The notes: generated from the letters alone by a model not told the origin. 64,000 nt of DNA from Parcubacteria group bacterium Athens0714_16 (GCA_007376805.1 VMGX01000001.1:70461-134460), one strand, 5' to 3'. Counted from the stretch's first letter, positions 6,181 to 61,748 are shown. Numbers and translations: made by a program.

Positions 6181-6260
6181 CTGTCCGCCTCTGGCGGAAG
6201 TGGAGCGACTATATTTTTTGAGGATCCAGCTCCACTTTTGTAACTTATTTTTATTAAATT
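6181..6260. repeat. Dispersed repeat copy A (ccgcctctggcgg hairpin plus AGTGGAGC...GCTCCACT hairpin)
   Basis: 35 nt (gcgactatattttttgaggatccagctccactttt) are identical to the reverse complement of 62853-62887. Confidence 0.6.
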
Positions 6261-6381
6261 ATTAAACTCAAAGAAAATTTCTTTATTTTAGAATTACACC
6301 TGAAAACGAAAACAAAAGTGGGGCTGTGGTAAAATAAAAAACCCTATCATTCGCTTTCGCTACTAGATAAGGTTTGACCAC

Positions 6382-6630
6382 TTAAATTATTTTAAAAATT
6401 ATTAACAAGATAAATATAACACCAGCAATCACAAACACATCTCTGATTACACAACTCCAATTCCCGACACGAAACCAAAACTTTTTCTTTTTTCGCAGGC
6501 CGGAATTTTCCGGCATATGGTCAAGAAATCTGTTTTGTTTATAGAGATTCCTTCGCTTTGATTCAGAAACTTGAATCAAAAAATGAGCTCCAAGCGCTAA
6601 AACAAATAATATTAAAACAAAAATTTTCAT
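6382..6630 (-). CDS. Small hypothetical membrane protein
   Basis: 82-aa ORF with two hydrophobic segments. No recognisable motif. Confidence 0.3.
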   Translation of the reverse strand: MKIFVLILFVLALGAHFLIQVSESKRRNLYKQNRFLDHMPENSGLRKKKKFWFRVGNWSCVIRDVFVIAGVIFILLIIFKII

Positions 6631-6761
6631 AAGAACTATCCTCCAAAAAGTTGTTTTTCTATTACAAGATTATCACAGTATTACAATATTGTCAACCTTT
6701 GGTTTTTTGTTTTTAACTATTCAACCATTTAGCTAAATTAGAAAATAGTTTTTTGTTTTAT

Positions 6762-6866
6762 TATCTGCGTTTACCCTGTTAAATAAATTTGCTCAAGCAA
6801 ATTTTCTACTTTGTAGAATTTAACAGGGTTAATCTGCGGTTTTGTTATCTGCATTCATCTGCGGAA
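6762..6866. mobile_element. Miniature inverted-repeat element (57 bp, TIR ACCCTGTTAAAT) flanked on both sides by ATCTGCG iterons
   Basis: ttatctgcgtttACCCTGTTAAATaaatttgctcaagcaaattttctactttgtagaATTTAACAGGGTtaatctgcggttttgttatctgcattcatctgcgg. The TIRs are identical to those bracketing the GIY-YIG ORF at 58628-58915. Confidence 0.6.
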
Positions 6867-6867
6867 T

Positions 6868-7965
6868 TCAAATCTTGAATTCAACGACATCCCCGTCTTT
6901 AACAACATATTCCTTCCCTTCCGTACGAACAAGCCCTTTTGCTTTTGCATTTGCATGTGAACCGGCGTCAACTAAATCTTTCCAATTTATAATTTCTGCA
7001 CGAATAAATTTATCTTTGAAATCAGTGTGAATTGCCATCCCCGCCTCTGGCGCACTTGAATTTCTTTTTATAGTCCACGCCCTCGTCTCATCCTCGCCTG
7101 TCGTCAAAAATGTTATCAAGTCCAAAGCCGAGTACCCTTTTTTAATCAACTCATTTGTTCCGTCATCAAAAACATTTAATTCCTTTCTAAATTCTTTTGC
7201 GTCCTCAACACTCAAGTCCTTCAACTCGTTTTCAATTCCGGCATCAACAATAACAAACTCTGAGCCAGAATCTTTAAAAAACTTCATTAACTTTTCATAT
7301 CTCTCATCTTTTATCTCACACACATCCTTACAACCACTTTTTTTATTTAAAACATAAATTATTTTTTTTGTAGTCAAAAGGTTTAATGTCTTCAAAACTT
7401 CCCTTTCTTCTTTTTCTAAATCAAGTGTTGACGCGAGTTTCCCCTCGTCTAAAACTGCATATACTTTTTTAAAAACCCCTTCTTCAAAAATTGCTTTCTT
7501 ATCTCCCTTCTTAATATCCTTCGCGAGAGTATTAATTCTTTTTGAAACGACTTGAAAATCAGACATTATTAATTCCAAATTTATTATTTCAATATCTTTG
7601 AGCGGGTCTATTTCATTATGAACATGTGTTATATTTTTATCTTCAAATATTCTCACAACCTCCGCAATTGCATCGGTTTCTCTTATGTTCGCCAAAAATT
7701 GATTTCCAAGCCCCTCGCCTTCCGACGCTCCTTTCACAAGCCCCGCAATATCAACAAATTCCACAACCGCTGGAATTTTCTTTTTTGAATTTGAAAATTT
7801 ATTTAATATCTCAACTCGTTCATCGGGCACAGGAACAATCCCCACGGATGGGTCAATTGTGCAGAAAGGATAATTCTCCGCCGGAACGGACTTTTTCGTC
7901 AGCGCATTAAATAGCGTGGACTTCCCCACGTTTGGTAGCCCTACGATTCCTATTGAAATATTCAT
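6868..7965 (-). CDS. ychF: Ribosome-binding ATPase YchF (Obg-family GTPase with TGS domain)
   Basis: N-terminal IGIVGLPNVGKSTLFNALT P-loop, NYPFCTIDP, C-terminal TGS (VRTEGKEYVVKDGDVVEFKI). Confidence 0.9.
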   Translation of the reverse strand: MNISIGIVGLPNVGKSTLFNALTKKSVPAENYPFCTIDPSVGIVPVPDERVEILNKFSNSKKKIPAVVEFVDIAGLVKGASEGEGLGNQFLANIRETDAIAEVVRIFEDKNITHVHNEIDPLKDIEIINLELIMSDFQVVSKRINTLAKDIKKGDKKAIFEEGVFKKVYAVLDEGKLASTLDLEKEEREVLKTLNLLTTKKIIYVLNKKSGCKDVCEIKDERYEKLMKFFKDSGSEFVIVDAGIENELKDLSVEDAKEFRKELNVFDDGTNELIKKGYSALDLITFLTTGEDETRAWTIKRNSSAPEAGMAIHTDFKDKFIRAEIINWKDLVDAGSHANAKAKGLVRTEGKEYVVKDGDVVEFKI

Positions 7966-9340: not shown

Positions 9341-10519
9341 TTATTTTTGCCCAATTATTTGGCTCATTTGTTGTATCGCTTCAGAAAGTTCTTCTTGAGT
9401 ATAAAAATTTTTATTATTTTTAATAGCTTCGTCTATCTCACTTTTTCTTGTAATTCCACACCTAAGAGTATTTGGATTACCTCCCGAGTGGTGTATCTGA
9501 TGTCGAATATATGTCAGATCAGGAATATCTGTACGTTCTACGCCTTTTTCATTTACATAGATTCTACTTTTTATATTTCCAATTTTCACATCTTTTATAT
9601 GTTTTTTCTGTTTCTTTTCTAAACAACTGTATAAAAAAATAAAAAGTAACTCATCTTCAATTCCGTTTATCAGGCCTTCTTTTAATACTTCAGTCATCCC
9701 ATTATTTTTCTGAAAAGAAAAAATTTTTTTGTTTAATTGTTCATCTAAGGCGGGAAAAACAAAATATGGGTCATGGGTAGTAATAATAACTTGGTGGTTT
9801 GGAAAACTTGCTATTTTTTCCAAGGTCGAATTCAGAGTTCTTTTTAGTTTGGGATGTAAATAAATTTCTGGTTCTTCAAATAAAATAAGAATTTGTTCAC
9901 CAATCAATGAATTATTTTCTAATAAAACATCCATATACGCCTTTAGAACAGAAAGAATTATCAATCTTTGTGTTCCCTGCCCAATTTCATTCAAGTTTCT
10001 CTCTTGTCCTTCTTCATTAACGACAATTTTGTCTATAAAAGATTGTATGATTATTTTTGAGTCCAATTCATTATTAGTAGGGTTTATATTGATTTTGTGT
10101 GTATTACACCCAGTAAAACTTTCAAGATTGATATTTGTTTTGTCTTCTGTATTTTTTAATATTTTTTTAATATTTTTTGAAATGTTTTCATCCAATTTAA
10201 TTTTTAAATTAATGTTTGAAAATAGTTTTGATAAGCTTTCTACCAACCATGTCGTTTTGGCCGTATGCTTCAAGACATCTTCGGATGGTTTTATATTTTC
10301 AGCTTTTATATAAATAATTTGTTCGTCTTTTAGTTTTATTTCTTCATCAAGATCATTAACAAACTTTGTGTTTTTACCAATAATTTCGTTTATAAAATTT
10401 GTTTTTCCAGAATTATTTTCTCCAGTGATTACAGTAATTTGTCCTAGTTCTAAAATAAAATTTTCAGGAATAGTTTTATTTTGTTTTGTAATTTCTATTT
10501 TTTTTATCATGTTATTCAA
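9341..10519 (-). CDS. AAA_21/ABC-type ATPase (defence-associated ATPase family) with uncharacterised ~130-aa C-terminal domain
   Basis: Walker A GENNSGKT, Q-loop/signature-like GQGTQR, Walker B ILILFEEPE, H-loop ITTHDP. Last gene of the MTase-MTase-HNH-ATPase operon. Confidence 0.75.
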   Translation of the reverse strand: MNNMIKKIEITKQNKTIPENFILELGQITVITGENNSGKTNFINEIIGKNTKFVNDLDEEIKLKDEQIIYIKAENIKPSEDVLKHTAKTTWLVESLSKLFSNINLKIKLDENISKNIKKILKNTEDKTNINLESFTGCNTHKININPTNNELDSKIIIQSFIDKIVVNEEGQERNLNEIGQGTQRLIILSVLKAYMDVLLENNSLIGEQILILFEEPEIYLHPKLKRTLNSTLEKIASFPNHQVIITTHDPYFVFPALDEQLNKKIFSFQKNNGMTEVLKEGLINGIEDELLFIFLYSCLEKKQKKHIKDVKIGNIKSRIYVNEKGVERTDIPDLTYIRHQIHHSGGNPNTLRCGITRKSEIDEAIKNNKNFYTQEELSEAIQQMSQIIGQK

Positions 10520-10619
10520 AATGGTTTATAATATTTCTATAATACACCACAACAAACTTGACACAAGTGCAAAAACCCTTTAAAAAGTTGAAAGATTGTG
10601 AATACCTGTGGATAACTAT

Positions 10620-11867
10620 TTATTCTAATTTGATTTTATACCACTTAAATAATTTTTCTAAGTCAAAAATAATACCAACCTTTTCAAGATGTTTTTTTCG
10701 ATTCTCAAATAAATTTTTAATAAAATCCTTTCTTTCTGTATCAACCGCGAGATGAATTTTTCTATGACAATTTGGACAAAGACAAATAATATTTTCTGTA
10801 ATATCTATACTAACATCAAATCTTTTTCTTTCAGAAAATGGTATCAAATGGTGCGCTTCAACATAATTTTTATTATTTGATTTTGAATTAAATGTCATGT
10901 GAGCATTATTATATTCGCATAAATAATTACTATTCTTTTTTGAAAATTCTTTCATGTTTTGACTAGAAAACAATATTTCATCGTCTGTATCTAAATCAAA
11001 ATTTTCTTTTTTCCATTCTTCAATAATCTTTCTTTTTTCTTCAAAAGAAAACCCTTCTTTTTGTAATTTTATTGATAAATTGCTTATTTTTAAGTTTCTG
11101 TTACTTATATTTTTTTCTGATATTTCAATATTTTTGTATTGTTCATCTACGAAGAAAAAATTTGATCTTAGTTTCCCTTTATTATTTTCAATTTCAGATT
11201 TATAATAATCTATTTTAAATGGCGTAAATAAACCAAATTTACTAATATAATAAAAAAGTGGCAATCTAAATTGGTCATTTTTCCTAAAAGATTTTTTTTG
11301 GACTAATCTTGGATTGTAGTTAAACACAGCTCCTATAATATCATTGTATTTGGTTAATTTTCTTTTTATCAACATAGGAGTTTTTTCTATTATATCCATA
11401 GAAATAAATCTATGATTAAAATCAAGTGAACCCCGAGCATCAATGGCTCCTGTAAAAAACATTGTTTTATATGTATCGTCTATATCTATAAGCCATTTTT
11501 CTATAATCCCGTATATATAAACTGACAGATCAACTGTGTTTGGTATTAACAAATCATTTTCTATCACAATAGATACTCCGTTTTTTATTCTTTGACTTTT
11601 ATCTTGTAAACTTGACCTGCTTATATCTTTATTTAATATGACCTCATAGTCATCACCCAAAAAATTTTCTAATTTTTTCTTATGAAGATAATAATATTCA
11701 TTGATGTTTTTCTCTAGTTTATTTTTACTTCTTTTTCCTTTTATGTATGCACTGTATGCTAAAATTTTATTATCATTCAATATAATAAAATGAGCATATA
11801 TCATTCCAAGAACAAAAGATGTTTGTATATTAGTATTTTCTATTTTTAATAACTCACTGAATTTCAT
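10620..11867 (-). CDS. HNH nuclease-domain protein (415 aa, HNH at C-terminus; candidate restriction endonuclease or Septu PtuB-like effector)
   Basis: C-terminal AHHLIPFSERKRF...IICLCPNCHRKIH HNH motif. Large N-terminal domain without recognisable motifs. 15-bp gap to the upstream MTase. Confidence 0.7.
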   Translation of the reverse strand: MKFSELLKIENTNIQTSFVLGMIYAHFIILNDNKILAYSAYIKGKRSKNKLEKNINEYYYLHKKKLENFLGDDYEVILNKDISRSSLQDKSQRIKNGVSIVIENDLLIPNTVDLSVYIYGIIEKWLIDIDDTYKTMFFTGAIDARGSLDFNHRFISMDIIEKTPMLIKRKLTKYNDIIGAVFNYNPRLVQKKSFRKNDQFRLPLFYYISKFGLFTPFKIDYYKSEIENNKGKLRSNFFFVDEQYKNIEISEKNISNRNLKISNLSIKLQKEGFSFEEKRKIIEEWKKENFDLDTDDEILFSSQNMKEFSKKNSNYLCEYNNAHMTFNSKSNNKNYVEAHHLIPFSERKRFDVSIDITENIICLCPNCHRKIHLAVDTERKDFIKNLFENRKKHLEKVGIIFDLEKLFKWYKIKLE

Positions 11868-11882
11868 ATAATTTTTTAACTT

Positions 11883-12563
11883 TTAAAATAACTTTTCTTG
11901 AATGTCATAATCTTTGATTCTTTTTTCCGTCATCTGACAATATTTTTTATTTATATCACCAACTATAAAATTACGAGCCTTTTTCTTACTTGCTACAGCT
12001 GTTGTACCAGAACCAACACAAGGATCTAATACAATATCACCTTTATTTGAACTCACATCTATTAAATATTCAAAAAGTTTCAATGGTTTTTGAGTTAAAT
12101 GTATTTTACTGCTACCATTCGGCATTTTTATAACTGTATTTTTATATTTTTCATTAAATGTTGCTCCTCTTTTTTTAAAATATATAAAAGATTCTACACC
12201 ACTAAGCCAAACGTGTTTTGAATTCATAGGACTGGGATTGGTTTTTTCCCAAATCATGAGACGAACAGAATAATTTTTGGAATTAAAATAATCAAAAATT
12301 TCTGATATCTGTTCTTTACCACAAAAAATATAACCACTACCTCTTGTAACTCTGTCTATCTCTACCAAAAAATCTCTTAATTCAAAGGTTTTTTTATTTG
12401 CTTCTCCTTTATCTAAATTTCTTAATCCGTTTGATTTTTTATTAACTTTTTCATAAGGTATATCAGTTAATACCAGATCAATAAAATTATTATCAATCAT
12501 TCTTAATAACAAAATTGCATCTTTTTGGTAAATCTTATTTAACTGAATGGTTTCTTTTTTCAT
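11883..12563 (-). CDS. Beta-class DNA methyltransferase (N4-cytosine or N6-adenine)
   Basis: Motif IV DIPY (DPPY-like) precedes motif I DPCVGSGTT. Overlaps the upstream Dcm gene by 29 nt. Confidence 0.8.
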   Translation of the reverse strand: MKKETIQLNKIYQKDAILLLRMIDNNFIDLVLTDIPYEKVNKKSNGLRNLDKGEANKKTFELRDFLVEIDRVTRGSGYIFCGKEQISEIFDYFNSKNYSVRLMIWEKTNPSPMNSKHVWLSGVESFIYFKKRGATFNEKYKNTVIKMPNGSSKIHLTQKPLKLFEYLIDVSSNKGDIVLDPCVGSGTTAVASKKKARNFIVGDINKKYCQMTEKRIKDYDIQEKLF

Positions 12564-13593
12564 ATCTTAATATATGTTTTGCAATTGCTTCCCCAAGTAA
12601 CGGTGGCACAGCATTCCCTATTTGTTTTATAATTGAAGACTTATTCCCAAAAAATATAAAATCATCTGGAAATGATTGAATTCTTGCCGCCTCTCTGGGA
12701 GTTATTGCTCTATGTAAAAATGGGTGTGAATTTTTTCCATTAGAAGGGGTATCAAATCTTGTTACAATAGTTGGACTGGGTTTATTTTTTTCTAATCTAC
12801 CCCATGTTTGTCCAAAAGTTGATGATATTTTTTCACTTAGAAACTCCTTTCCTTTCTCTGGTGGAATTCTTTTTAATCTATCGATGGCAATTTCAGAGTG
12901 TTTTGTGGCAACATGATTAAATAACTTTTTTGAATTTTTCCTCATTTTCTTTTGATACTTGCTTCTAGATTCTATTTTATATTCTGACTCAAAATTACCA
13001 TCGCCAGAATTTAAATACGACAAATCTGAGATTGCTTCCCAAACAGTAATTTTTCTATTAGTATTTTTTTCTGGCAACAAAAGTTTATCTTTTAATGATC
13101 CTATAAATATTGCTCTTTTTCTGTTTTGTGGAACCCCAAAATCAGAAGCGTCCAAAATACCAAAAGATATTTTATATCCAACCTTTGTTAATTCATTTAA
13201 AATTTGTTTTTTAAAATATCCACCTTGTTCTGTTAAAATAGTAGGCACATTTTCCATAACAAAATAAGTTGGTTTAAAAAATTTAATATATTTTATATAT
13301 TCTTTGAATAAAAAATTTCTTTCATCGTTTAATCCAGCTCTTTTTCCTTTTAATGAAAAGCCCTGACACGGTGGTCCACCAATAATTACATCTACATTTT
13401 TTATTTTCGATTTGATTTTTTGAGGTTTTATATTTCTTATATCTCCAACAAATATTTCCGTATTTTTATGATTTCTTTTCATTGATTCAGCAATCATTTT
13501 GTCATATTCCAATGCACCGACAATACAAAAACCCGCCATTTCAAAACCACGGCTTAATCCACCAACACCAGAAAATAAATCCAAAACTTTCAT
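12535..13593 (-). CDS. DNA (cytosine-5)-methyltransferase
   Basis: Motif I LFSGVGG, motif IV GGPPCQGFS, ENV motif. Confidence 0.9.
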   Translation of the reverse strand: MKVLDLFSGVGGLSRGFEMAGFCIVGALEYDKMIAESMKRNHKNTEIFVGDIRNIKPQKIKSKIKNVDVIIGGPPCQGFSLKGKRAGLNDERNFLFKEYIKYIKFFKPTYFVMENVPTILTEQGGYFKKQILNELTKVGYKISFGILDASDFGVPQNRKRAIFIGSLKDKLLLPEKNTNRKITVWEAISDLSYLNSGDGNFESEYKIESRSKYQKKMRKNSKKLFNHVATKHSEIAIDRLKRIPPEKGKEFLSEKISSTFGQTWGRLEKNKPSPTIVTRFDTPSNGKNSHPFLHRAITPREAARIQSFPDDFIFFGNKSSIIKQIGNAVPPLLGEAIAKHILRYEKRNHSVK

Positions 13594-13809
13594 TTTTTAA
13601 TAATTGTATCAGAAAAAATTTATTACTACTTCATTTTACCATTTTAAAATAATTATAAAAACAAAAACAATCGTCTTACTGCGATTGTCTTTATAACCTC
13701 TAGATTAGCTCTGCGCTTAGACCGTACTCACTAAATCATAAAATTATCCAGCAATATACAAACGGTTTGGCTCTCAGGTGGTCTCTAGAATTTTTAAGTT
13801 AAATATGTC

Positions 13810-13978
13810 TTACACTAAAATAGCATATGGAGCATTTATCCTAGTCCACATTACAGATTTTTTAGCATTTTCTAAAGAAGAATAACCTTCGCTCCAACAA
13901 ACAATTTCTCCATTAACAGCCTTTAGATGCCAGTGGTATAGTTTATCTTTACCAATATAAATTTCAAATTTAATCATG
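13810..13978 (-). pseudogene. Frameshifted DUF1508 (YegP-like) small protein
   Basis: MIKFEIYIGKDKLYHWHLKGC* then, in +1 frame, AVNGEIVCWSEGYSSLENAKKSVMWTRINAPYAILV*. An extra G in the GGG run at ~13919-13922 splits a 55-aa DUF1508-like domain. Confidence 0.45.
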
Positions 13979-14023
13979 TTAAATTTTAATTTAATTCTTA
14001 TAATTTTACGGCCCGCTCACAAA

Positions 14024-14057
14024 AACAAAAAACGAGACCATTCGGCCTCGTTTTTTG
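14024..14057. terminator. Hairpin aacgagaccattcggcctcgtt with flanking A/T runs
   Basis: Stem-loop plus TTTTTT read in the sequence. Confidence 0.5.
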
Positions 14058-14252
14058 TAAGATAATTTTTAAAAAAATTCAAAACATGGTCGAAGGTAGC
14101 TAATTTTTTGGTTCAAATCAATTTTTTTGTTGTTGAACCTTCGATAACTAAGTCTCTTTTTTAATTTTTAATGAATCGTATAGGGCATTATACCATACTC
14201 AAGCAAAAAATGCAAGTAAATTTATTCACAAAAATAGAAAAGTATTTACGCT

Positions 14253-14672
14253 CTACCCCCTTGAAATTGAGTTAATGATTTTATAAACACAAAACAAAGA
14301 AAGCAGTATTGGAATTAAAACAGATATTCCAAAGGCAACCGCAAAAAGAATATGTTGGAAACTTCCTATAACTACCACTCCGTTTGGTTGGAGTGTAATA
14401 GTAAATATCAAAAAAATATAGGGGATAAACGAACCTAAAATTATACGATTTATATAAATAAGATTTTTTTCTGATAAATTATTTTTAGAGAGTTCAAAGA
14501 AAAAATAAGAAGTTACATATAATGCTATTGGAAGAAAAAATTCAACAAATGTTTCAAATTGTCTCCCCGGAGAATAGGACATAATAGTTGGAAACAAAAG
14601 AACAACAACAAGAAGCGTTTTGAATCTATTTTGGATGTCATTTAATATTTCTTTTTGTTTTTCATTTAACAT
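14253..14672 (-). CDS. Hypothetical membrane protein (4 TM)
   Basis: Hydrophobic 139-aa ORF preceded by the conserved promoter-like module (TGGTAGAAT). Confidence 0.4.
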   Translation of the reverse strand: MLNEKQKEILNDIQNRFKTLLVVVLLFPTIMSYSPGRQFETFVEFFLPIALYVTSYFFFELSKNNLSEKNLIYINRIILGSFIPYIFLIFTITLQPNGVVVIGSFQHILFAVAFGISVLIPILLSLFCVYKIINSISRG

Positions 14673-14826
14673 ATTATTCAGTGCACCAATATCTATATTC
14701 TACCACTTTGAAAAAAATTGAATAACATCATCTCCACGTCCCACAAAACCTTTAAAAACTCCCAAAATCTCTATACAACCATTTAATTAAATGATTGAAT
14801 ACAAAAAAACTATTCAATTATTTAAT

Positions 14827-14868
14827 CCTGCCCCGTAGCCCAGCCCCGGGCTGGTGGTACTGGGGTGG
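14827..14868. repeat. GC-rich hairpin element (CCCCGTAGCC-CAGCCCCGGGCTGG-TGGTACTGGGG) inserted in the centre of the 26-nt palindromic repeat
   Basis: Member of a 4-copy family (16237-16272, 18911-18943, 61329-61359) with conserved outer arms CCCGTAGC / GYTACTGGG and covarying inner stems. Confidence 0.55.
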
Positions 14869-15216
14869 ATTAGAGAAAGTATCCGTATCCTCTAAAAACC
14901 CCATGCAACCATTCAATTGAATTAGAGAAAGTATTTCTCAACATTATTTTTGTCTGTTTTTGTATACAACCATTCAATTGAATTAGAGAAAGCATCCGTA
15001 TTCCCCCAAAACTTCTATACAACCATTCAATTGAATTAGAGAAAGCATTTCTCAACATTATTTTTGTCTGTTTTTGTATACAACCATTCAATTGAATTAG
15101 AGAAAGTACCCGTATCCTCTAAAAACCTCCATACAACCATTCAATTGAATTAGAGAAAGCATTTCTCAACATTATTTTTGTCTGTTTTTGTATACAACCA
15201 TTCAATTGAATCTTTA
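14868..15216. repeat. Higher-order tandem repeat: 26-nt unit CAACCATTCAATTGAATTAGAGAAAG alternating with two spacer types (A ~27 nt, B 35 nt), ~3 copies of a ~115-bp super-unit
   Basis: Direct reading. Spacer B (catttctcaacattatttttgtctgtttttgtata) is identical three times. Spacer A variants are near-identical. Overlaps the 3' end of the Fic ORF. Confidence 0.8.
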
Positions 15217-16136
15217 TCTCTTGAATTACTATCTGCAACAAACAAGGTCAAAGCTGTAAGAGTTGGCGGTGTTAATTTAGATAAATTTAAAATACCGGCT
15301 TTTTTCAAAAACCATATAAAAGCATACGCTCCCGTTCTTTTGTTTCCATCAACAAGCGGATGATTTTTTACTATAAAATATAAAATGTGTGCAGCTTTTT
15401 CTTCTACTGTAGGGTATAAATCTTTTTTATCAAACGATTGAAAAATTGAACCAACAATTCCTTCTATACTTCCATCAACACGTTCTTGTCCAAACAAATC
15501 ACCCGCTAAATTCTTTTTAGTAAGTTCTTTTTTAAAATCAGAAAAAGCATTAAACAATTCTTGAGCTACAAAAACTATTCGTTTTTTAGTCGCACCTTTT
15601 TGTGGTAAATAAGATTTGTCGTAGGCGTCAAGCGACAACCATGTGTTTGCAAAAGCAGAAATCAATTCAATCATACTGGCATGATCAACGCTTGAACTCG
15701 CGGGAAGTGAGTGCTTAATATTTTCAACCGCTTTTTGAAATTGCGTATAGTTTTTTGCAATTTGTTTTTTGTTTATTACATAGCCATCAACAATATATTG
15801 ACGAAGTGTTTTGGTTGCCCATTTACGAAATTCAATCGCTACTCTCGAATTTGTTCTATAACCAATTCCTAAAATAACATCGAGTGAATAAAGTGTGATT
15901 GGTTTATCAGAATTTGCATTATGCATTTTTTGCATATTGCTTTTTTCTTCAATTTCACCATCTCTAAATATATTCTTTATGTGACGAGATACCACAGATT
16001 GATCAACACCAAAAAGATCCACAATTTGCGCTTGCGTTGCCCAAATAGTTTCGTGTGTAAAATCACCTTTTAATTCTATGGAACCACTTTTGGTTTGATA
16101 TACAACAATATCTTTAGTTTTTTTAACTTTTTTCAT
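15150..16136 (-). CDS. Fic/Doc family protein with RhuM-like N-terminal domain
   Basis: Fic motif HPLVDGNKRTGAYAF. N-terminal region matches the RhuM-type pattern (TKSGSIELKGDFTHETIWATQAQIVDLFGVDQSVVSRHIKNIF). C-terminal ~25 codons run into the tandem repeat. Confidence 0.75.
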   Translation of the reverse strand: MKKVKKTKDIVVYQTKSGSIELKGDFTHETIWATQAQIVDLFGVDQSVVSRHIKNIFRDGEIEEKSNMQKMHNANSDKPITLYSLDVILGIGYRTNSRVAIEFRKWATKTLRQYIVDGYVINKKQIAKNYTQFQKAVENIKHSLPASSSVDHASMIELISAFANTWLSLDAYDKSYLPQKGATKKRIVFVAQELFNAFSDFKKELTKKNLAGDLFGQERVDGSIEGIVGSIFQSFDKKDLYPTVEEKAAHILYFIVKNHPLVDGNKRTGAYAFIWFLKKAGILNLSKLTPPTLTALTLFVADSNSRDKDSIEWLYTKTDKNNVEKCFL

Positions 16137-16149
16137 TTTTTTATATAAA

Positions 16150-16400
16150 AGTATTTATATTCTACCACTTTGAAAATTTTTTAAAAAATTTGAATAACCC
16201 TCCAAATTTTCTAAAAACCTCCATACAACCATTCAATCCTGCCCTGTAGCCAACTTGTTGTGGTACTGGGGTGAATTAGAGAAAGTATCCGTATCCTCTA
16301 AAAACCTCCATGCAACCATTCAATTGAATTAGAGAATACATCCGTTAAGTTTTTGTATATAACCATTCAATTGAATTAGAGAATAGAGAGAACGGAAAGG
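16150..16400. repeat. Promoter-like conserved module plus copies of the 26-nt palindromic repeat and a GC hairpin element (16237-16272)
   Basis: tattctaccactttgaaaattttttaaaaaatttgaataaccctccaaatt is shared with 14690-14740 and 17900-17950. caaccattcaattgaattagagaa occurs twice. Confidence 0.6.
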
Positions 16401-16444
16401 AAACAAAAAATAAATCGATGCAATAACAAACTACAACCCAAAAA

Positions 16445-16723
16445 TTATAAACCTGAGATTATGTTTGAAATAAAATTTGGCAACGATTTTGATATTGAAT
16501 AATAAACGAGTAAGCTTCTCTGATCAGGTGAGAGTATTTCAACGGCTTCCAAAAGTTTTATATGTTTTGAGGTGGCTTGAATAGAAATCTTTAATTCCTC
16601 GGCTATGTCACCCACCGATGCTTCGCCTTCTTTTTTAATAAATGAAATAATTGCTAGCCGACGATAATTCGCCAACGCCTTGATTGATCTCTCTAATTTT
16701 TTAAATTGTTTTGCTTCAATCAT
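16445..16723 (-). CDS. ArsR/SmtB-family winged-HTH transcriptional regulator
   Basis: LANYRRLAIISFIKKEGEASVGDIAEELKISIQATSKHIKLLEAVEIL matches the ArsR HTH pattern. Confidence 0.55.
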   Translation of the reverse strand: MIEAKQFKKLERSIKALANYRRLAIISFIKKEGEASVGDIAEELKISIQATSKHIKLLEAVEILSPDQRSLLVYYSISKSLPNFISNIISGL

Positions 16724-16825
16724 TTTTTATATTTTTAACTTTTAATATTCCAAAAATATTTTTTGTTTTTGTAATTAATTCTAAAATATTTTTACTGAAT
16801 ATATTATATCTCTCAAAAATCCACC

Positions 16826-16910
16826 ATACAACCATTCAATTGAATTAGAGAATACATCCGTTAAGTTTTTGTATACAACCATTCAATTGAATTAGAGAAA
16901 GCATTTATAA
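16826..16910. repeat. Two further copies of the 26-nt palindromic repeat CAACCATTCAATTGAATTAGAGAA upstream of the ArsR-like gene
   Basis: Direct reading. Spacer catccgttaagtttttgtata is shared with 16340-16362. Confidence 0.6.
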
Positions 16911-17043
16911 AAACGCCTGCTCGCCTTTGGAGAGAACGGGTAATTAAATTAGAAAATAGAAAGAAAATAAATCTATCCCCCTATTCGCTACAATTAGGGG
17001 ATAGATAATGCAAAAAATAAACGGGTCTATTTTTAAAAATTTT

Positions 17044-17886
17044 CTATAAAAAATACATATCTTGTCCATAACCACCAACACCAATATATTCTGCCTCGCC
17101 TTTCAAAATAGATTCGTATGGCTTACAAGCAAAACATCCTTTTTCTCCGCGAGGACAATTGAAAATTTCTTTTTCTCTGGCCTCTTTAACTTTTAAAGCA
17201 ATCGCAAGCACTTTTTCTTTGGCTTCATCAATATTTGGCAATTTCATTTCTATTGGTTCGTCATCTTTATCAAGATACCAATATGATGCTCCTGAAATTT
17301 TTCTTTTTTGTAATGCATTTAAAAGCAAGAGGTAGATTGGAAGCTGAAGTGAATCTTCGGCTTCGTCATTTTTACCAGTTTTAAAATCAATGATACGAAC
17401 ACTGTCATTTTTTTCAACATATTCCAACCAATCAATAAGCCCACAAAGTATTATATTTTCATCTTCGGAAAGATAAAAATTTGGTGGCATATTATTATGT
17501 CCATCTTTTATTTTTACAGTTTTTCTTGCAATAGGTCCCGGATTTTTTATAACCCGTTCTATCATTTCAACTCCTCTTTTTTTAAATTCATTTTCTTCGT
17601 CATCATTTTTAAATCCGCCTTTTTTACCAGATACTTGCGACCAAGCATTTTCAAAATCGGCTAAAAAATCTCGCTTCATTCTTTCTTCAACTGGAATATT
17701 TTTTGATGATTCAAGTGTGGTATGCACTGCCTGACCAAGAGAAAGATACGGATTAACTATATTTATTTTTCTCCCAGTTTTTGGGTCTTTATAAATATTG
17801 TGCAAATAATAAGCCCGTGGACATTTCAAAAAATCCCCCATTGAAGAATGCGATACCCATATTGACTTGTATTTATCTGGCGTCAT
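17044..17886 (-). CDS. PD-(D/E)XK nuclease, Cas4/RecB-C-terminal-like with 4-Cys cluster
   Basis: N-terminal Cys (LKCPRAY), IDFKTGK (D/E-x-K), C-terminal CPRGEKGCFAC (Cx6Cx2C) typical of Cas4-type Fe-S nucleases. Confidence 0.6.
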   Translation of the reverse strand: MTPDKYKSIWVSHSSMGDFLKCPRAYYLHNIYKDPKTGRKINIVNPYLSLGQAVHTTLESSKNIPVEERMKRDFLADFENAWSQVSGKKGGFKNDDEENEFKKRGVEMIERVIKNPGPIARKTVKIKDGHNNMPPNFYLSEDENIILCGLIDWLEYVEKNDSVRIIDFKTGKNDEAEDSLQLPIYLLLLNALQKRKISGASYWYLDKDDEPIEMKLPNIDEAKEKVLAIALKVKEAREKEIFNCPRGEKGCFACKPYESILKGEAEYIGVGGYGQDMYFL

Positions 17887-17899
17887 TGTTTTAAATAAT

Positions 17900-18080
17900 T
17901 ATTTATATTTTACCACTTTAAAAATTTTTTAAAAAATTTGAATAACCCTCCAAATTCCACAAAATTCTTTAATTCTTTAATTTCTCTATTCAACCATTTA
18001 ATTAAATGATTGAATACAAAAAAACTATTCAATTATTTCCTACAAAAACGGACGAGTAATTAAATTAGAAAATAGTTTCT
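17900..18080. repeat. Promoter-like conserved module plus stem-loop module (ttaaatgattgaatac aaaaaaa ctattcaattattt)
   Basis: Near-identical to 14690-14826. Contains TGGTAAAAT/TGGTAGAAT extended -10-like sequence on the minus strand ~22 nt upstream of the ATG. Confidence 0.6.
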
Positions 18081-18099
18081 GGTATTAAATATAATAAAA

Positions 18100-18121
18100 A
18101 CCCGCTTCTCTCGGAAGCGGG
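18100..18121. terminator. Hairpin cccgcttctctcggaagcggg with A-run on plus and T-run on minus
   Basis: Would terminate a minus-strand transcript covering 18122-18470. Confidence 0.5.
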
Positions 18122-18505
18122 CATGGCCACAAAGGCCTAGGGTCAAACCATGTAGTGTGGAATTTGTTCGTTTCTGCTCGTCCTCAAATCCAGGACCCAA
18201 TCTGGTTATCTGATTTTCGAGACAGTACAACCCTTAAACAATTCCGAATGATCGAGTGTTTCACTATAATTTTAAATATTTCATTTCGGGTTTGCACTCC
18301 ATATTTAAAATTTCTAGCTATCCCTGTCTAGCGGGAACCCATAGGAACCTAAGTAAAGATTTTCATTCTCTCCCCGTCCCATGAGAGAGAACATCGATGA
18401 ATTTGGGACAAAAGTCCATATCACTATTCTTATTTGTCCCATCTAAGAATAATGAACCGTAGATACATTATAGCAGATACAAAAAATGTGTCAATACGCA
18501 AAAAT

Positions 18506-18796
18506 TTAATCACTCAAATATTTGTGCATAGTAGTATCTTCCGGTATTGTCCATGCTCCTTCACGCAAAGGAATGATGAGTGTCTTTATATAAAAAACTC
18601 TCATGTTTTTATACCGTCTTGATTTTTCTATAACAACGGTACAAACATCTTTTTCATCGGCAGAAACTAATTCTGCAAGTTTTTTTGCATTGGAGTTCAA
18701 CATATCAACGATTTCCTTCACATAAGGAGAATTGTCAGTATATCCGACAACCCAAAATAATATTTTTTCAGAAAGTGAATAAAAAAGATTTTTCAT
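18506..18796 (-). CDS. Hypothetical protein
   Basis: 96-aa ORF, no recognisable motif. Confidence 0.35.
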   Translation of the reverse strand: MKNLFYSLSEKILFWVVGYTDNSPYVKEIVDMLNSNAKKLAELVSADEKDVCTVVIEKSRRYKNMRVFYIKTLIIPLREGAWTIPEDTTMHKYLSD

Positions 18797-19004
18797 TTCA
18801 ACACCTACTTTTGTTTATATTTTATTGAACTTTTCGCTGTATATAATACATGAATATATTATTTTGTCAATATTTAGTAATAGGTTTTCTCATTCTCTAA
18901 TCCAATTTATCCCGTAGCCAACTTGTTGTGGTACTGGGACAGGATTAGAGAATGGAAAAAACAAAAAAATTATGAATTAAAAATCTCATTAAGAGCTTTT
19001 TAAT

Positions 19005-42493: not shown

Positions 42494-42717
42494 GGCTGTT
42501 CCTCCTTATTTTTGTTATTAAAATATTTAAAAGAACTTGAATTTATATCAAATTCTCTGTTTTAAATGATATAACAAATCATCAAAAAAGTCAAATTTTT
42601 TCCAAAAGACTCCCCCTCGAAGAAAAAACTTATTTAAAATATGTGCACAACTACGGAGGCAAAAAACAAAGGAGGCGTTGAATAAATTCAACGCCTCAAA
42701 CAAAATTAATTACTTGT

Positions 42718-42783
42718 CCCGTTAAATGCGGAGCATATTTAACTGGGATGGATGAAAAAGCTCATTCAGAGCTTTTCATTCAT
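42718..42783. repeat. Mini palindromic element CCCGTTAAAT-9nt-ATTTAACTGGG plus terminator module GAAAAGCTCATTCAGAGCTTTTC overlapping the stop of 42780..44138
   Basis: Near-identical copy at 47166-47225. Related terminator hairpin at 44199-44220. Confidence 0.55.
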
Positions 42784-46935: not shown

Positions 46936-47211
46936 ATATTAAAAAGAAAGTTTAAAAACACTTGACTTTCTTTTTAATATATGATATTATTATACCAGAT
47001 ACTTAGATTACAGCACCAGCCAACTTGCGGAGTGAGAAATACTCACACCCACCAAAAAAACGGCTGTGATCTAAAAAAACAAATTCCCACATAAAAGCCT
47101 CGTTGCAAACTTCCAATCATCTGCAACGAGGCTATCTTTTTTTAAACAAAAAAAATATTACTTGTCCCGTTAAATACAAAGTATATTTAATTGGGATGGA
47201 TCAAAAATCTC

Positions 47212-61290: not shown

Positions 61291-61375
61291 AATTTAATTT
61301 ATTTTTTATTATTAATATTTTTTACTCGTCCCGTAGCGAGCTTTGCTCTGCTACTGGGATTGTTTTATTGTTTTA

Positions 61376-61606: not shown

Positions 61607-61748
61607 TTAGTAATACTACCACAGATTTACTAAATTATCAAGATTTAGAAAAGTCGCACTTGGCGGTGAAACCGCCAAGTGCTATACATAGGACGGCTAC
61701 GGGCGAGGGACAACCCCACAAAAACTTTTATCAAATTTCATCACTGAG

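What the first reader, a model, noticed from the sequence alone, without database searches (positions are those of the whole stretch)
14827..14868. Family of GC-rich hairpin elements with conserved outer arms and covarying inner stems
Four copies (14827-14868, 16237-16272, 18911-18943, 61329-61359) share outer arms CCCGTAGC ... G(C/G)TACTGGG. The inner stems differ but stay complementary (CCAAC/GTTGTGG, CGAGC/GCTCTG, CAGCCCC/GGGGCTG). Compensatory variation implies selection for structure, on RNA or as a cruciform recombination site. Two copies are inserted exactly at the centre of the 26-nt palindromic repeat, replacing TGA of ATTCAAT-TGA-ATT.
Basis: seen in the sequence. Interest (0 to 1): 0.55.

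Follow-up and report, generated by a model that had tools for sequence, protein, structure and literature searches.

The report
Mobile GC-rich DNA hairpin family
The four hairpins are copies of a tiny (about 34-45 base) mobile DNA hairpin, built like the ends of IS200/IS605 transposons, that is spread through candidate-phyla-radiation bacteria, sulfate-reducing Desulfobacterota and some of their phages and even sits in-frame inside essential genes.

Summary
Four hairpins share the arms CCC(C)GTAGC...G(G/C)TAC-T-GGG(G), far above chance, and a covariance model finds two diverged relatives (42713-42748, 47161-47196).

They are not a local curiosity. An exact-pattern scan hit its 120-locus limit, and about 113 hits are true members. 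These come from Patescibacteria, Desulfobacterota and three phage types.

The foot is near-invariant: CYTG-CCCC-G...C-T-GGGG-T. The inner stem varies with strict Watson-Crick compensation.

Three filled-versus-empty comparisons show a discrete insert, CCTG...GGGG, with no target duplication. Copies also lie in-frame inside IleRS, DnaG and RseP genes, in ribosomal-protein operons and in phage capsid modules. They show no consistent orientation to genes or to GC skew.

The arms equal the IS608 subterminal hairpin (CCCC-TAGC...GCTA-T-GGGG) plus one G-C pair, with the same extrahelical T and a conserved tetranucleotide 5' of the foot.

Best reading: a non-autonomous, REP-like single-strand-DNA element moved in trans by a Y1 HUH transposase. 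The enzyme is not identified. The CPR RAYT family tested is not flanked by these hairpins.

Structured RNA and attC-like recombination site are disfavoured.

The parts
14827..14865 (+). Copy 1: CCTG-CCCC-GTAGC-[CCAGCC CCG GGCTGG]-T-GGTAC-T-GGGG, inserted in a degenerate palindromic unit (ATTTAAT^TGGATTAGAG).
   Evidence: CM 56.4 bits, E 8e-12. DNA fold -13.1 kcal/mol. Present unchanged in L001 and L002.
16238..16271 (+). Copy 2: CCTG-CCCT-GTAGC-[CAAC TT GTTG]-T-GGTAC-T-GGGG, a clean 34-nt insert between ATTCAAT and TGAATTAGAG of the 26-nt palindromic repeat, with no target duplication.
   Evidence: Nine unfilled units serve as empty sites. CM 50.5 bits. L002 has CCCC at this site.
18906..18939 (+). 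Copy 3: TTTA-TCCC-GTAGC-[CAAC TT GTTG]-T-GGTAC-T-GGGA. It belongs to the 'TTTA...C' flank class.
   Evidence: CM 45 bits. An identical 39-nt sequence occurs in two contigs of another Patescibacteria MAG (L067, L140).
18893..18952 (.). Outer 11-bp perfect inverted repeat, TTCTCTAATCC (18893-18903) and GGATTAGAGAA (18942-18952), that encloses copy 3 and makes a 60-nt composite hairpin at the edge of the cassette island.
   Evidence: DNA fold of 18880-18955 gives -16.2 kcal/mol, z -6.05.
61325..61359 (+). Copy 4: CTCG-TCCC-GTAGC-[GAGC TTT GCTC]-T-GCTAC-T-GGGA, between two minus-strand genes and outside the island. The outermost pair has changed C-G to T-A on both sides.
   Evidence: CM 49.8 bits. 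DNA fold -10.9 kcal/mol, z -5.15. The same inner stem GAGCTTTGCTC occurs in L155 and L100.
42713..42748 (+). Diverged relative: CTTG-TCCC-G-TTAAAT-[loop]-ATTTAA-C-T-GGGA. The foot, the G-C pair and the bulged T are kept; the middle is AT-rich.
   Evidence: CM 20.8 bits, E 0.006. Sequence. DNA fold z -4.73. Also present in L166 and L167.
47161..47196 (+). Second diverged relative of the same AT-rich-arm subtype.
   Evidence: CM 14.3 bits, E 0.26, weak on its own. It is nearly identical in its arms to 42713-42748.
14888..15229 (+). Unfilled target sites: a 114-nt tandem repeat (three copies) holding six of the nine exact copies of the palindromic repeat core ATTCAATTGAATTAGAGAA (five within it, a sixth begins at 15201). 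Further copies are at 16318, 16365, 16834 and 16881.

Best explanation
The hairpins are copies of a very small (about 34-45 nt), non-autonomous mobile DNA element.

Anatomy:
- A conserved tetranucleotide (CYTG; variants CTCG and TTTA) lies directly 5' of the foot.
- The foot is a 4-bp CCCC/GGGG stem.
- One extrahelical T sits on the 3' arm.
- Above it is a short GTAGC/G(G/C)TAC helix, then a second bulged T.
- The top is a free-to-vary stem-loop.

This is the anatomy of the single-strand DNA substrates of Y1 HUH transposases: the subterminal hairpins of IS200/IS605 elements, and REPs. The arms are those of the IS608 hairpin plus one G-C pair.

Shown:
- The unit CCTG...GGGG is a discrete insert with no target duplication.
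- It has landed in palindromes, intergenic spacers, a tRNA fragment and open reading frames.
- The family spans Patescibacteria, Desulfobacterota and phages.
- The variable stem is kept paired by compensatory changes.

Inferred:
- It is excised and re-inserted as single-stranded DNA ('peel and paste') by a Y1 transposase supplied in trans.
- The enzyme reads the folded foot, the bulged T and the 5' tetranucleotide. That is why the fold, but not the inner sequence, is conserved.
- Pairs of copies in direct orientation may occasionally carry a passenger gene, for example the RhuM/Fic gene between copies 1 and 2.
For: Family and structure:
- An exact-pattern scan of one genome per species hit its 120-locus limit.
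- The CM confirms 116 matches in 100 of those loci.
- The hosts are Saccharibacteria, Nomura-, Moran-, Taylor- and Kaiserbacteria, Paceibacterota, Desulfobacterales and Desulfatiglandales.
- Five phage contigs of three types carry it.
- Inner-stem covariation is strong, with almost no G.U.
- CM-only hits show compensation in the arms too: GTAGG/CGTAC, GGAGC/GGTCC and GTACC/GGTAC.

Discrete insertion without duplication:
- Window copy 2 against nine empty palindromes.
- Copy 1 at the homologous point of a duplicated block, but with a different inner stem.
- L127: an intact tRNA-Ile, and a duplicated 3' half that carries CCTG...GGGG at CAGG^TTCG.
- Stacked half-units in Desulfobacteraceae drawn from different subfamilies.

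Behaviour of selfish DNA:
- In-frame insertions in IleRS, DnaG and RseP appear as gaps against solved homologues.
- Hairpins sit at different positions of the same ribosomal-protein operon in different genomes.
- There is no orientation bias to genes or GC skew.

Link to Y1 substrates:
- IS608 LE is AAAG-CCCCTAGCTTTTAGCTATGGGG and RE is GAAT-CCCCTAGCTTTAGCTATGGGG (supplement of PMC5934647).
- IS608 has a guide tetranucleotide 5' of the foot and inserts without gain or loss of DNA (PMC3201880).
- Y1_Tnp genes lie within 2 kb of the hairpin in L164 and L100, with a fragment in L082.
Against: - No Y1 transposase lies in the window or next to most copies. A tblastn with a recalled IS608 TnpA found none in about 1 Mb.
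- The large CPR RAYT-like family is not flanked by these hairpins: 3 hits in 436 kb around 80 such genes, none closer than 2.5 kb. That family has its own CCACTTGG...CCAAGTGG palindromes.
- The insert ends 4 nt 5' of the foot and exactly at the 3' foot. In IS608 the cleavage sites lie 19 nt and 10 nt away.
- Target preference is only G^T, not a tetranucleotide.
- No replication-strand bias is seen with a local GC-skew proxy. In the window the T-bulge strand lies on the C-rich strand, opposite to the IS608 expectation.
- Enrichment in hairpin loops is not significant (27% against 17%, p 0.14).
- The arms in the large sample were fixed by the search pattern, so their invariance is partly ascertainment.
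Confidence: 0.55

Rival explanations
1. A structured RNA motif, such as a terminator, a stabiliser, a processing site or a protein-binding site, selected at the transcript level.
For: - Covariation in the stem is strong.
- The closing pair is G.T in 49 of 67 members, with A.C as the main alternative. These two are isosteric wobbles in RNA.
- Copy 2 has a T.G pair that works only on the + strand.
- Many copies lie just 3' of genes. All six in the window do.
Against: - The orientation to flanking genes is mixed: 14 antisense-tandem, 13 divergent, 9 convergent and 7 sense-tandem.
- The six window copies are antisense to their genes.
- Three of the four lack a T-run.
- Inner stems hold about 1-2% G.U.
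- C(GAA)G triloops, typical of stable DNA mini-hairpins (own knowledge), are frequent.
- Copies occur in coding frames and in a tRNA pseudo-copy.
- No Rfam family matches.
Confidence: 0.1
2. An attC-like folded recombination site that marks cassette boundaries of an integron-like array and is recombined by a tyrosine recombinase.
For: - Three copies lie in a cassette-like island of accessory genes.
- A sister strain lacks two of those cassettes.
- Bulged bases on one arm plus a variable terminal stem recall the extrahelical bases and variable terminal structure of attC (own knowledge).
- Copy 3 is enclosed by TTCTCTAAT...ATTAGAGAA, which is near RYYYAAC/GTTRRRY.
- Pairs of hairpins flank RhuM or MazF-like genes in L059 and L100.
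Against: - No IntI or other tyrosine recombinase is detected in the window by tblastn.
- The L001 deletion junction lies in the 26-nt palindromes (14990/16899), and copy 1 is untouched.
- The conserved sequence is about 20 nt, not two 7-nt core sites.
- Copies occur singly in ribosomal operons, essential genes and phage capsid modules.
Confidence: 0.08
3. A once-mobile element that is now a domesticated or host-maintained DNA structure, for example a binding site for a nucleoid or topology protein as proposed for REP/BIME. On this reading the copies are kept mainly by vertical descent.
For: - An apparently orthologous copy in the rplN-rplX spacer of two Parcubacteria/Paceibacterota genomes keeps identical arms. 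Its inner stem has changed by compensation, CAAATCTGAAAGATTTG against CAAGCCCGAAGGGCTTG.
- The arms are conserved across phyla.
Against: - No partner protein is known.
- Density varies: 6 in 64 kb here against 3 in 436 kb of other CPR DNA.
- Positions differ between genomes within the same operon.
- Identical copies are shared between different MAGs.
Confidence: 0.15
4. Chance similarity, or simple recent local duplicates with no family behind them.
For: Copies 2 and 3 have identical cores. Copies 1 and 2 share a duplicated right flank.
Against: - The motif counts are far above shuffles.
- More than 110 members lie in unrelated genomes.
- Copies 1 and 2 differ in the inner stem despite their shared flank.
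Confidence: 0.01

Closest known systems
Subterminal imperfect palindromes (IP_L / IP_R) of IS608, IS200/IS605 family
   Same: - The arm sequence is nearly the same. IS608 has CCCC-TAGC...GCTA-T-GGGG; here it is CCCC-G-TAGC...GCTA-C-T-GGGG.
- The extrahelical T sits directly above the GGGG foot in both.
- Both have a conserved tetranucleotide immediately 5' of the foot, which is the guide position in IS608.
- Both insert with no gain or loss of target DNA.
- When two copies flank a gene, both lie on the same strand.
   Different: - There is no tnpA or tnpB between the copies, and most copies are solitary.
- The element ends 4 nt 5' of the foot and exactly at the 3' foot, instead of 19 nt and 10 nt away.
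- It has one extra G-C pair, a second bulged T and a long variable upper stem.
- No tetranucleotide target is seen, only G^T.
- No lagging-strand bias is detected.
REP / REPIN elements mobilised by RAYT (TnpA_REP)
   Same: - Both are short GC-rich imperfect palindromes with a bulge, preceded by a conserved motif.
- Both are many dispersed, mostly extragenic copies.
- Both have subfamilies with complementary stem changes.
- Both occasionally insert within genes (PMC3733652; PMC8266576).
   Different: - GTAG is inside the stem and paired, not an unpaired 5' tag. The 5' motif here is CYTG.
- Copies are single, not inverted doublets.
- The CPR RAYT genes tested are not flanked by them.
- The same arms are shared across phyla, whereas REPs are usually lineage-specific.
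Rickettsia palindromic elements (RPE)
   Same: Both are palindromic selfish DNA found in-frame inside essential protein genes of a reduced-genome bacterium. Here the genes are IleRS, DnaG and RseP.
   Different: - RPEs are 100-150 bp and restricted to Rickettsia.
- There is no sequence relation.
- Here the coded peptide is about 13-16 residues, (N/D/F)PSTT...ATGQA.
Integron attC sites
   Same: Both are imperfect hairpins with extrahelical bases on one arm and a variable terminal stem-loop. Some copies lie between accessory gene cassettes.
   Different: There are no RYYYAAC/GTTRRRY core sites and no integrase. The conserved part is much longer, and copies occur outside arrays.
Mobile GC clusters of yeast mitochondrial DNA
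   Same: Both are short GC-rich hairpin-forming inserts in AT-rich DNA. Both insert into their own kind, giving stacked arrays (own knowledge; compare).
   Different: The yeast clusters are organellar and unrelated in sequence. They duplicate their target, and their mechanism is unknown.

Membership tests
REP / RAYT system (REPtron) | [quoted passage not shown] | tested here: met
   The foot, two bulged T and the CYTG motif are conserved in 67 aligned members. The definition is from PMC8266576.
REP / RAYT system (REPtron) | An unpaired GTAG or GTGG tetranucleotide 0-2 nt 5' of the hairpin foot. | tested here: not met
   GTAG lies 4 nt inside the stem and pairs with (C/G)TAC. The tetranucleotide at the foot is CYTG, CTCG or TTTA. 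The rule is from PMC6006769 and PMC3733652.
REP / RAYT system (REPtron) | The RAYT gene is flanked by its own REPs. | tested here: not met
   80 metagenome loci centred on the CPR RAYT-like family hold 3 hairpins in 436 kb, none within 2.5 kb of the gene. Their flanks carry CCACTTGG/CCAAGTGG instead. Only one Y1 family was tested.
REP / RAYT system (REPtron) | Copies mostly arranged as inverted doublets (REPIN/BIME). | tested here: not met
   Copies are single. Where two share a locus they are co-oriented in 13 of 15 cases.
IS200/IS605 insertion sequences | Subterminal hairpin with an extrahelical T and a guide tetranucleotide 5' of the foot. | tested here: met
   Direct comparison with the IS608 LE and RE oligonucleotide sequences and the description in PMC3201880.
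IS200/IS605 insertion sequences | Encodes a Y1 transposase (tnpA) between a left-end and a right-end hairpin. | tested here: not met
   No Y1 gene lies between paired copies in the window, L059, L100 or L108. No classical TnpA was found by tblastn in about 1 Mb. The element is at most a non-autonomous derivative.
IS200/IS605 insertion sequences | Insertion without target duplication, 3' of a fixed tetra- or pentanucleotide. | tested here: inconclusive
   The absence of duplication is shown in three filled-versus-empty pairs. The target shows only G at -5 (38/60) and T at +1 (46/60).
IS200/IS605 insertion sequences | Orientation bias relative to replication (active strand on the lagging-strand template). 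| tested here: inconclusive
   The local GC-skew sign is 31 against 22 (CPR type) and 24 against 22 (Desulfobacterota type), not significant. The proxy is weak on 8-kb fragments.
Integron attC site | R''/R' core sites RYYYAAC...GTTRRRY, and an integron integrase nearby or in the genome. | tested here: not met
   The element has no such cores. No tyrosine recombinase is detected in the window.
Intrinsic terminator | GC-rich hairpin followed at once by a U-run on the transcribed strand. | tested here: not met
   Only copy 4 is followed by a T-rich run, and that is on the strand antisense to both neighbouring genes.
Any Rfam 15 family | A match at or near the family gathering score. | tested here: not met
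   No hit at gathering score. Relaxed scans gave only microRNA noise: MIR5298 at 29.5 bits against a cut-off of 70, and mir-51 at 20.5 against 70.

The most novel reading that the evidence does not exclude
A single hairpin of about 34 nt (tetranucleotide plus foot plus bulged T) is by itself a complete transposable unit. That would make it the smallest known. It would move by a Y1-type or still unknown single-strand DNA enzyme and pass between phyla (Patescibacteria and Desulfobacterota) on phages. It would shape CPR genomes by inserting into palindromes, operons and essential genes, and by bracketing accessory genes into mobilisable cassettes.
Probability: 0.3. Interest if true: 0.8.

Novelty: new variant of a known kind. 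Interest (0 to 1): 0.6.

Why it matters
- CPR bacteria have tiny genomes and are thought to be poor in repeats. A widespread mobile hairpin that also sits inside essential genes would be a new force in their genome evolution and a handy strain marker.
- The near-identity of its arms to the IS608 end gives a concrete, testable candidate mechanism. It also gives a minimal natural substrate for single-strand HUH transposases, which are used as tools (HUH tags, targeted insertion).
- Sharing between CPR, Desulfobacterota and phages points to gene flow between co-resident anaerobes.
- The family is absent from Rfam. I found no description in the paper library. That search was limited, so prior description cannot be excluded.

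Tried and rejected
- Rfam at gathering and relaxed thresholds gave nothing.
- Full-text search for the arm sequences gave only unrelated primers. Searches for REP or palindromic elements in CPR found no relevant paper.
- CRISPR array was considered for the 26-nt repeats and dropped, because the 'spacers' recur.
- Terminator reading: there is no T-run after three of the four copies.
- tRNA-derived or 5S-derived origin and group II intron domain V were only superficial resemblances by eye and were not pursued.
- RAYT partnership was tested on 80 loci and not met.
- GIY-YIG nuclease neighbours are not consistently adjacent.
- Integrase neighbours: only a decayed fragment in L081.
- Preference for hairpin loops as targets is not significant.
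- Replication-strand and coding-strand bias are not significant.
- No head-to-tail junctions (GGGG|CCTG) occur in the DNA held.
- Recent transfer of a RhuM cassette between phyla is ruled out: the proteins are only 36% identical.
- Of 43 viral pattern hits, only 5 loci are true members by the CM. Seven genome hits in GC-rich taxa were chance.

Full report
**The window**

The window is about 31% G+C. Most genes are on the minus strand and GC skew is steadily negative. Its gene content fits a candidate-phyla-radiation (Patescibacteria) genome: phosphoketolase, T4SS pilins and small ribosomal operons. Near-identical contigs exist in ENA and Logan assemblies (L001, L002, L166-L169).

**The observation**

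- The arm words are far above chance: CCCGTAGC 4 times against 0.19 expected, GTACTGGG 3 times against 0.35.
- The common fold is a CCC(C)/GGG(G) foot, a bulged T on the 3' arm, GTAGC paired with G(G/C)TAC, a second bulged T, then a variable stem-loop. A G.G mismatch forms when the 3' arm reads GGTAC.
- Copies 2 and 3 have the same inner stem, so the window shows three stems.
- Copy 2 is a clean 34-nt insert, CCTG...GGGG, between ATTCAAT and TGAATT of a 26-nt palindromic repeat. That repeat occurs nine more times unfilled.
- Copy 1 is at the same point of a degenerate unit. It shares 47 nt of right flank with copy 2 yet has a different inner stem.
- Nothing is replaced and nothing is duplicated at either site.

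**Beyond the window**

- A scan of viral contigs for CCCGTAGC-N(9-18)-GSTACTGGG gave 43 hits. Five of them, from three phage types, are true members by structure and by the model.
- In those phages the hairpin lies right after or before the major capsid gene, or after a 1775-residue gene.
- Nearly all hits are Patescibacteria or Desulfobacterota. The Patescibacteria are Saccharibacteria, Nomura-, Moran-, Taylor- and Kaiserbacteria, Paceibacterota and Parcubacteria.
- The consensus is G-CYTG-CCCCGTAGC-[stem-loop]-T-G(G/C)TAC-T-GGGG-T. No conservation extends beyond it in the CPR set.
- Inner stems fall into types: CA..TG, GA..TC and TC..GA. They are strictly complementary.
  - The first inner pair is CG 27, GC 22, UA 4.
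  - The third inner pair is AU 31, GC 16, CG 4.
  - No shuffle and no slid register comes near the observed score, and G.U pairs are almost absent.
- A covariance model (R1) recovers the four window copies and two diverged relatives at 42713-42748 and 47161-47196. These keep only CTTG-TCCC-G...C-T-GGGA-T around an AT-rich middle.
- In other loci the model finds arm variants with compensation: GTAGG/CGTAC, GGAGC/GGTCC and GTACC/GGTAC.
- The exact 39-nt sequence of copy 3 recurs twice in another Patescibacteria MAG.

**Mobile DNA rather than RNA or a recombination site**

- Three filled-versus-empty comparisons give the same boundaries, CCTG...GGGG, with no target duplication.
  - Two are in the window's palindromic units.
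  - The third is in L127. There an intact tRNA-Ile is followed by a duplicated 3' half that carries the insert at CAGG^TTCG of the T-arm.
- In Desulfobacteraceae, left halves (CCTGCCCCG) and right halves (TAG...GGGG) are stacked. The units come from different subfamilies, as expected if copies insert into copies at G^TAG. The numbers of halves are unequal, so slippage also contributes.
- Orientation to neighbouring genes is mixed, and so is orientation to local GC skew.
- Copies lie inside ribosomal-protein operons at different positions in different genomes. In two genomes an apparently orthologous copy sits in a duplicated start of rplX. Its arms are identical but its inner stem has changed by compensation.
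- Copies lie in-frame in IleRS, DnaG and RseP, read as (N/D/F)PSTT...ATGQA. Against solved structures the coded peptides fall in insertions: about 30 residues between the two Cys of the IleRS zinc motif, and about 19 residues in DnaG.
- This is the behaviour of selfish palindromic DNA, as in Rickettsia RPEs and intragenic REPs (PMC3733652).

**The cassette island**

Copies 1-3 lie in an island (about 13.6-19.0 kb) of accessory genes: DUF1508, a membrane protein, RhuM/Fic, an HTH_20 protein, a PD-(D/E)XK protein and a 96-residue protein. The genes are separated by promoter-like repeats and the 26-nt palindrome.

Strain L001 lacks the HTH and RhuM cassettes. The junction lies in the palindromes at 14990 and 16899, not at a hairpin. 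No tyrosine recombinase is detected in the window. The palindromes look like the recombining sequences and like a favoured target of the hairpin. The hairpin itself does not behave as an attC.

**How it most likely works**

The arms are those of the IS608 subterminal hairpin with one added G-C pair.
- IS608 LE: AAAG-CCCCTAGCTTTTAGCTATGGGG.
- IS608 RE: GAAT-CCCCTAGCTTTAGCTATGGGG (supplement of PMC5934647).
- Here: CYTG-CCCC-G-TAGC...GCTA-C-T-GGGG.

The extrahelical T is at the same place, and a conserved tetranucleotide sits where IS608 has its guide sequence (PMC3201880).

IS608 moves as single-stranded DNA and inserts without gain or loss of DNA. REPs, processed by the related TnpA_REP, are likewise bulged palindromes preceded by a conserved motif (PMC8266576; PMC6006769).

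I therefore infer a non-autonomous element mobilised in trans by a Y1 HUH transposase. The enzyme would read the folded foot, the bulged T and the tetranucleotide, which explains conservation of fold over sequence in the upper stem.

Pairs of copies in direct orientation flank RhuM in the window and in L059, and a MazF-like gene in L100. This is the LE...RE geometry, so such pairs may carry passengers.

**What weakens this**

- Y1_Tnp genes lie within 2 kb in only L164 and L100, plus a fragment in L082.
- The large, well-conserved CPR RAYT-like family (3780 proteins) is not associated. Eighty loci centred on it hold three hairpins in 436 kb, none closer than 2.5 kb. Their flanks carry a different palindrome, CCACTTGG...CCAAGTGG.
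- No classical TnpA was seen near any copy.
- The element's ends lie much closer to the hairpin than in IS608.
- The target is only G^T.
- No replication-strand bias appears.
- The preference for hairpin loops is not significant.
- The invariance of the arms in the big sample is partly due to the search pattern.

**Verdict**

The RNA and recombination-site readings are disfavoured.
- It works like a REP or an IS200/IS605 end. It fails defining tests for REP/RAYT (tag position, doublets, RAYT flanking) and is not an autonomous IS.
- I file it as a new variant of the miniature palindromic mobile elements, with the mobilising enzyme still open.

Noticed in passing
window 13600-19000; L001 11250-14450; L002: This is a cassette-like island of accessory genes. 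Each gene is preceded by a promoter-like repeat, TATTCTACCACTTTGAAAA (13633, 14690, 16152, 17900). The genes are separated by the 26-nt palindrome core ATTCAATTGAATTAGAGAA (nine exact copies) and a 114-nt tandem repeat (three copies, 14888-15229) that runs into the 3' end of the RhuM/Fic ORF. Strain L001 lacks the HTH_20 and RhuM cassettes, with the junction inside the palindromes, and has 30 extra bases there. The palindrome occurs only in this organism's contigs among 249 loci.
   Followed up: partly
window 18085-18460, minus strand: A stretch of about 370 nt is richer in G+C than its surroundings and has no ORF over 56 residues. It ends in a clean intrinsic terminator (GCCCGCTTCCGAGAGAAGCGGGTTTTT). 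The RNA fold gives z -2.6 and no Rfam match. It is identical in L001 (L002 was not read). It may be an unclassified non-coding RNA inside the island.
   Followed up: partly
L100 3175-3870; proteins P0001-P0120; alignment A2: A large and well-conserved CPR family of RAYT-like Y1 transposases (3780 hits, 56-65% identity across classes) carries two in-frame peptide motifs QLGxxxSKL. In L100 both are encoded by palindromes, AACTTGG-N-CCAAGTT. The gene flanks are enriched in the related CCACTTGG/CCAAGTGG. This looks like REPs inside their own transposase gene.
   Followed up: partly
window 61655-61685 and 61690-61745: The perfect hairpin CACTTGGCGG-TGAAA-CCGCCAAGTG is of the same class as the CPR RAYT-flanking palindromes. 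It is the only such copy in the window. It lies just downstream of tRNA-Gln, next to a GC-rich stretch that holds a fifth CCCGTAGC word on the minus strand without the hairpin.
   Followed up: no
L068 2339-2675; L121 842-1178: In two Parcubacteria/Paceibacterota genomes the first 20-35 nt of rplX are duplicated. The hairpin sits in the upstream copy. This makes a short upstream ORF whose stop lies close to or overlaps the true rplX start (ATGA in L121), which suggests translational coupling after an insertion into an essential gene.
   Followed up: partly
L067 about 6560-6960; L140 about 6200-6600: In another Patescibacteria MAG the copy-3-type hairpin lies near one end of a MITE-like unit of about 200-250 nt, bounded by inverted repeats CCAAATTACAAAT...ATTTGTAATTTGG.
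   Followed up: no
L059, L087, L158; L064/L073/L109/L117/L122/L157/L163; L105: In Desulfobacterota the hairpin is often embedded in longer, genome-specific repeats. One example is ACAATTATTCAACATAGCCTGCCCTGCCTG[hairpin]TAAAATCATGGTTGCTTTTATTTAACTGGGG. Another is flanking direct repeats of ATCTGCG on both sides.
   Followed up: no
window 9341-13593: A restriction-modification and defence cluster lies next to the island: an AAA-ATPase-like protein, an HNH protein, an N6/N4 methylase and a C5 DNA methylase.
   Followed up: no
L081 300-560: A decayed fragment of an integron-integrase-like N-terminal domain lies directly after a hairpin in a Desulfobacteraceae contig.
   Followed up: partly
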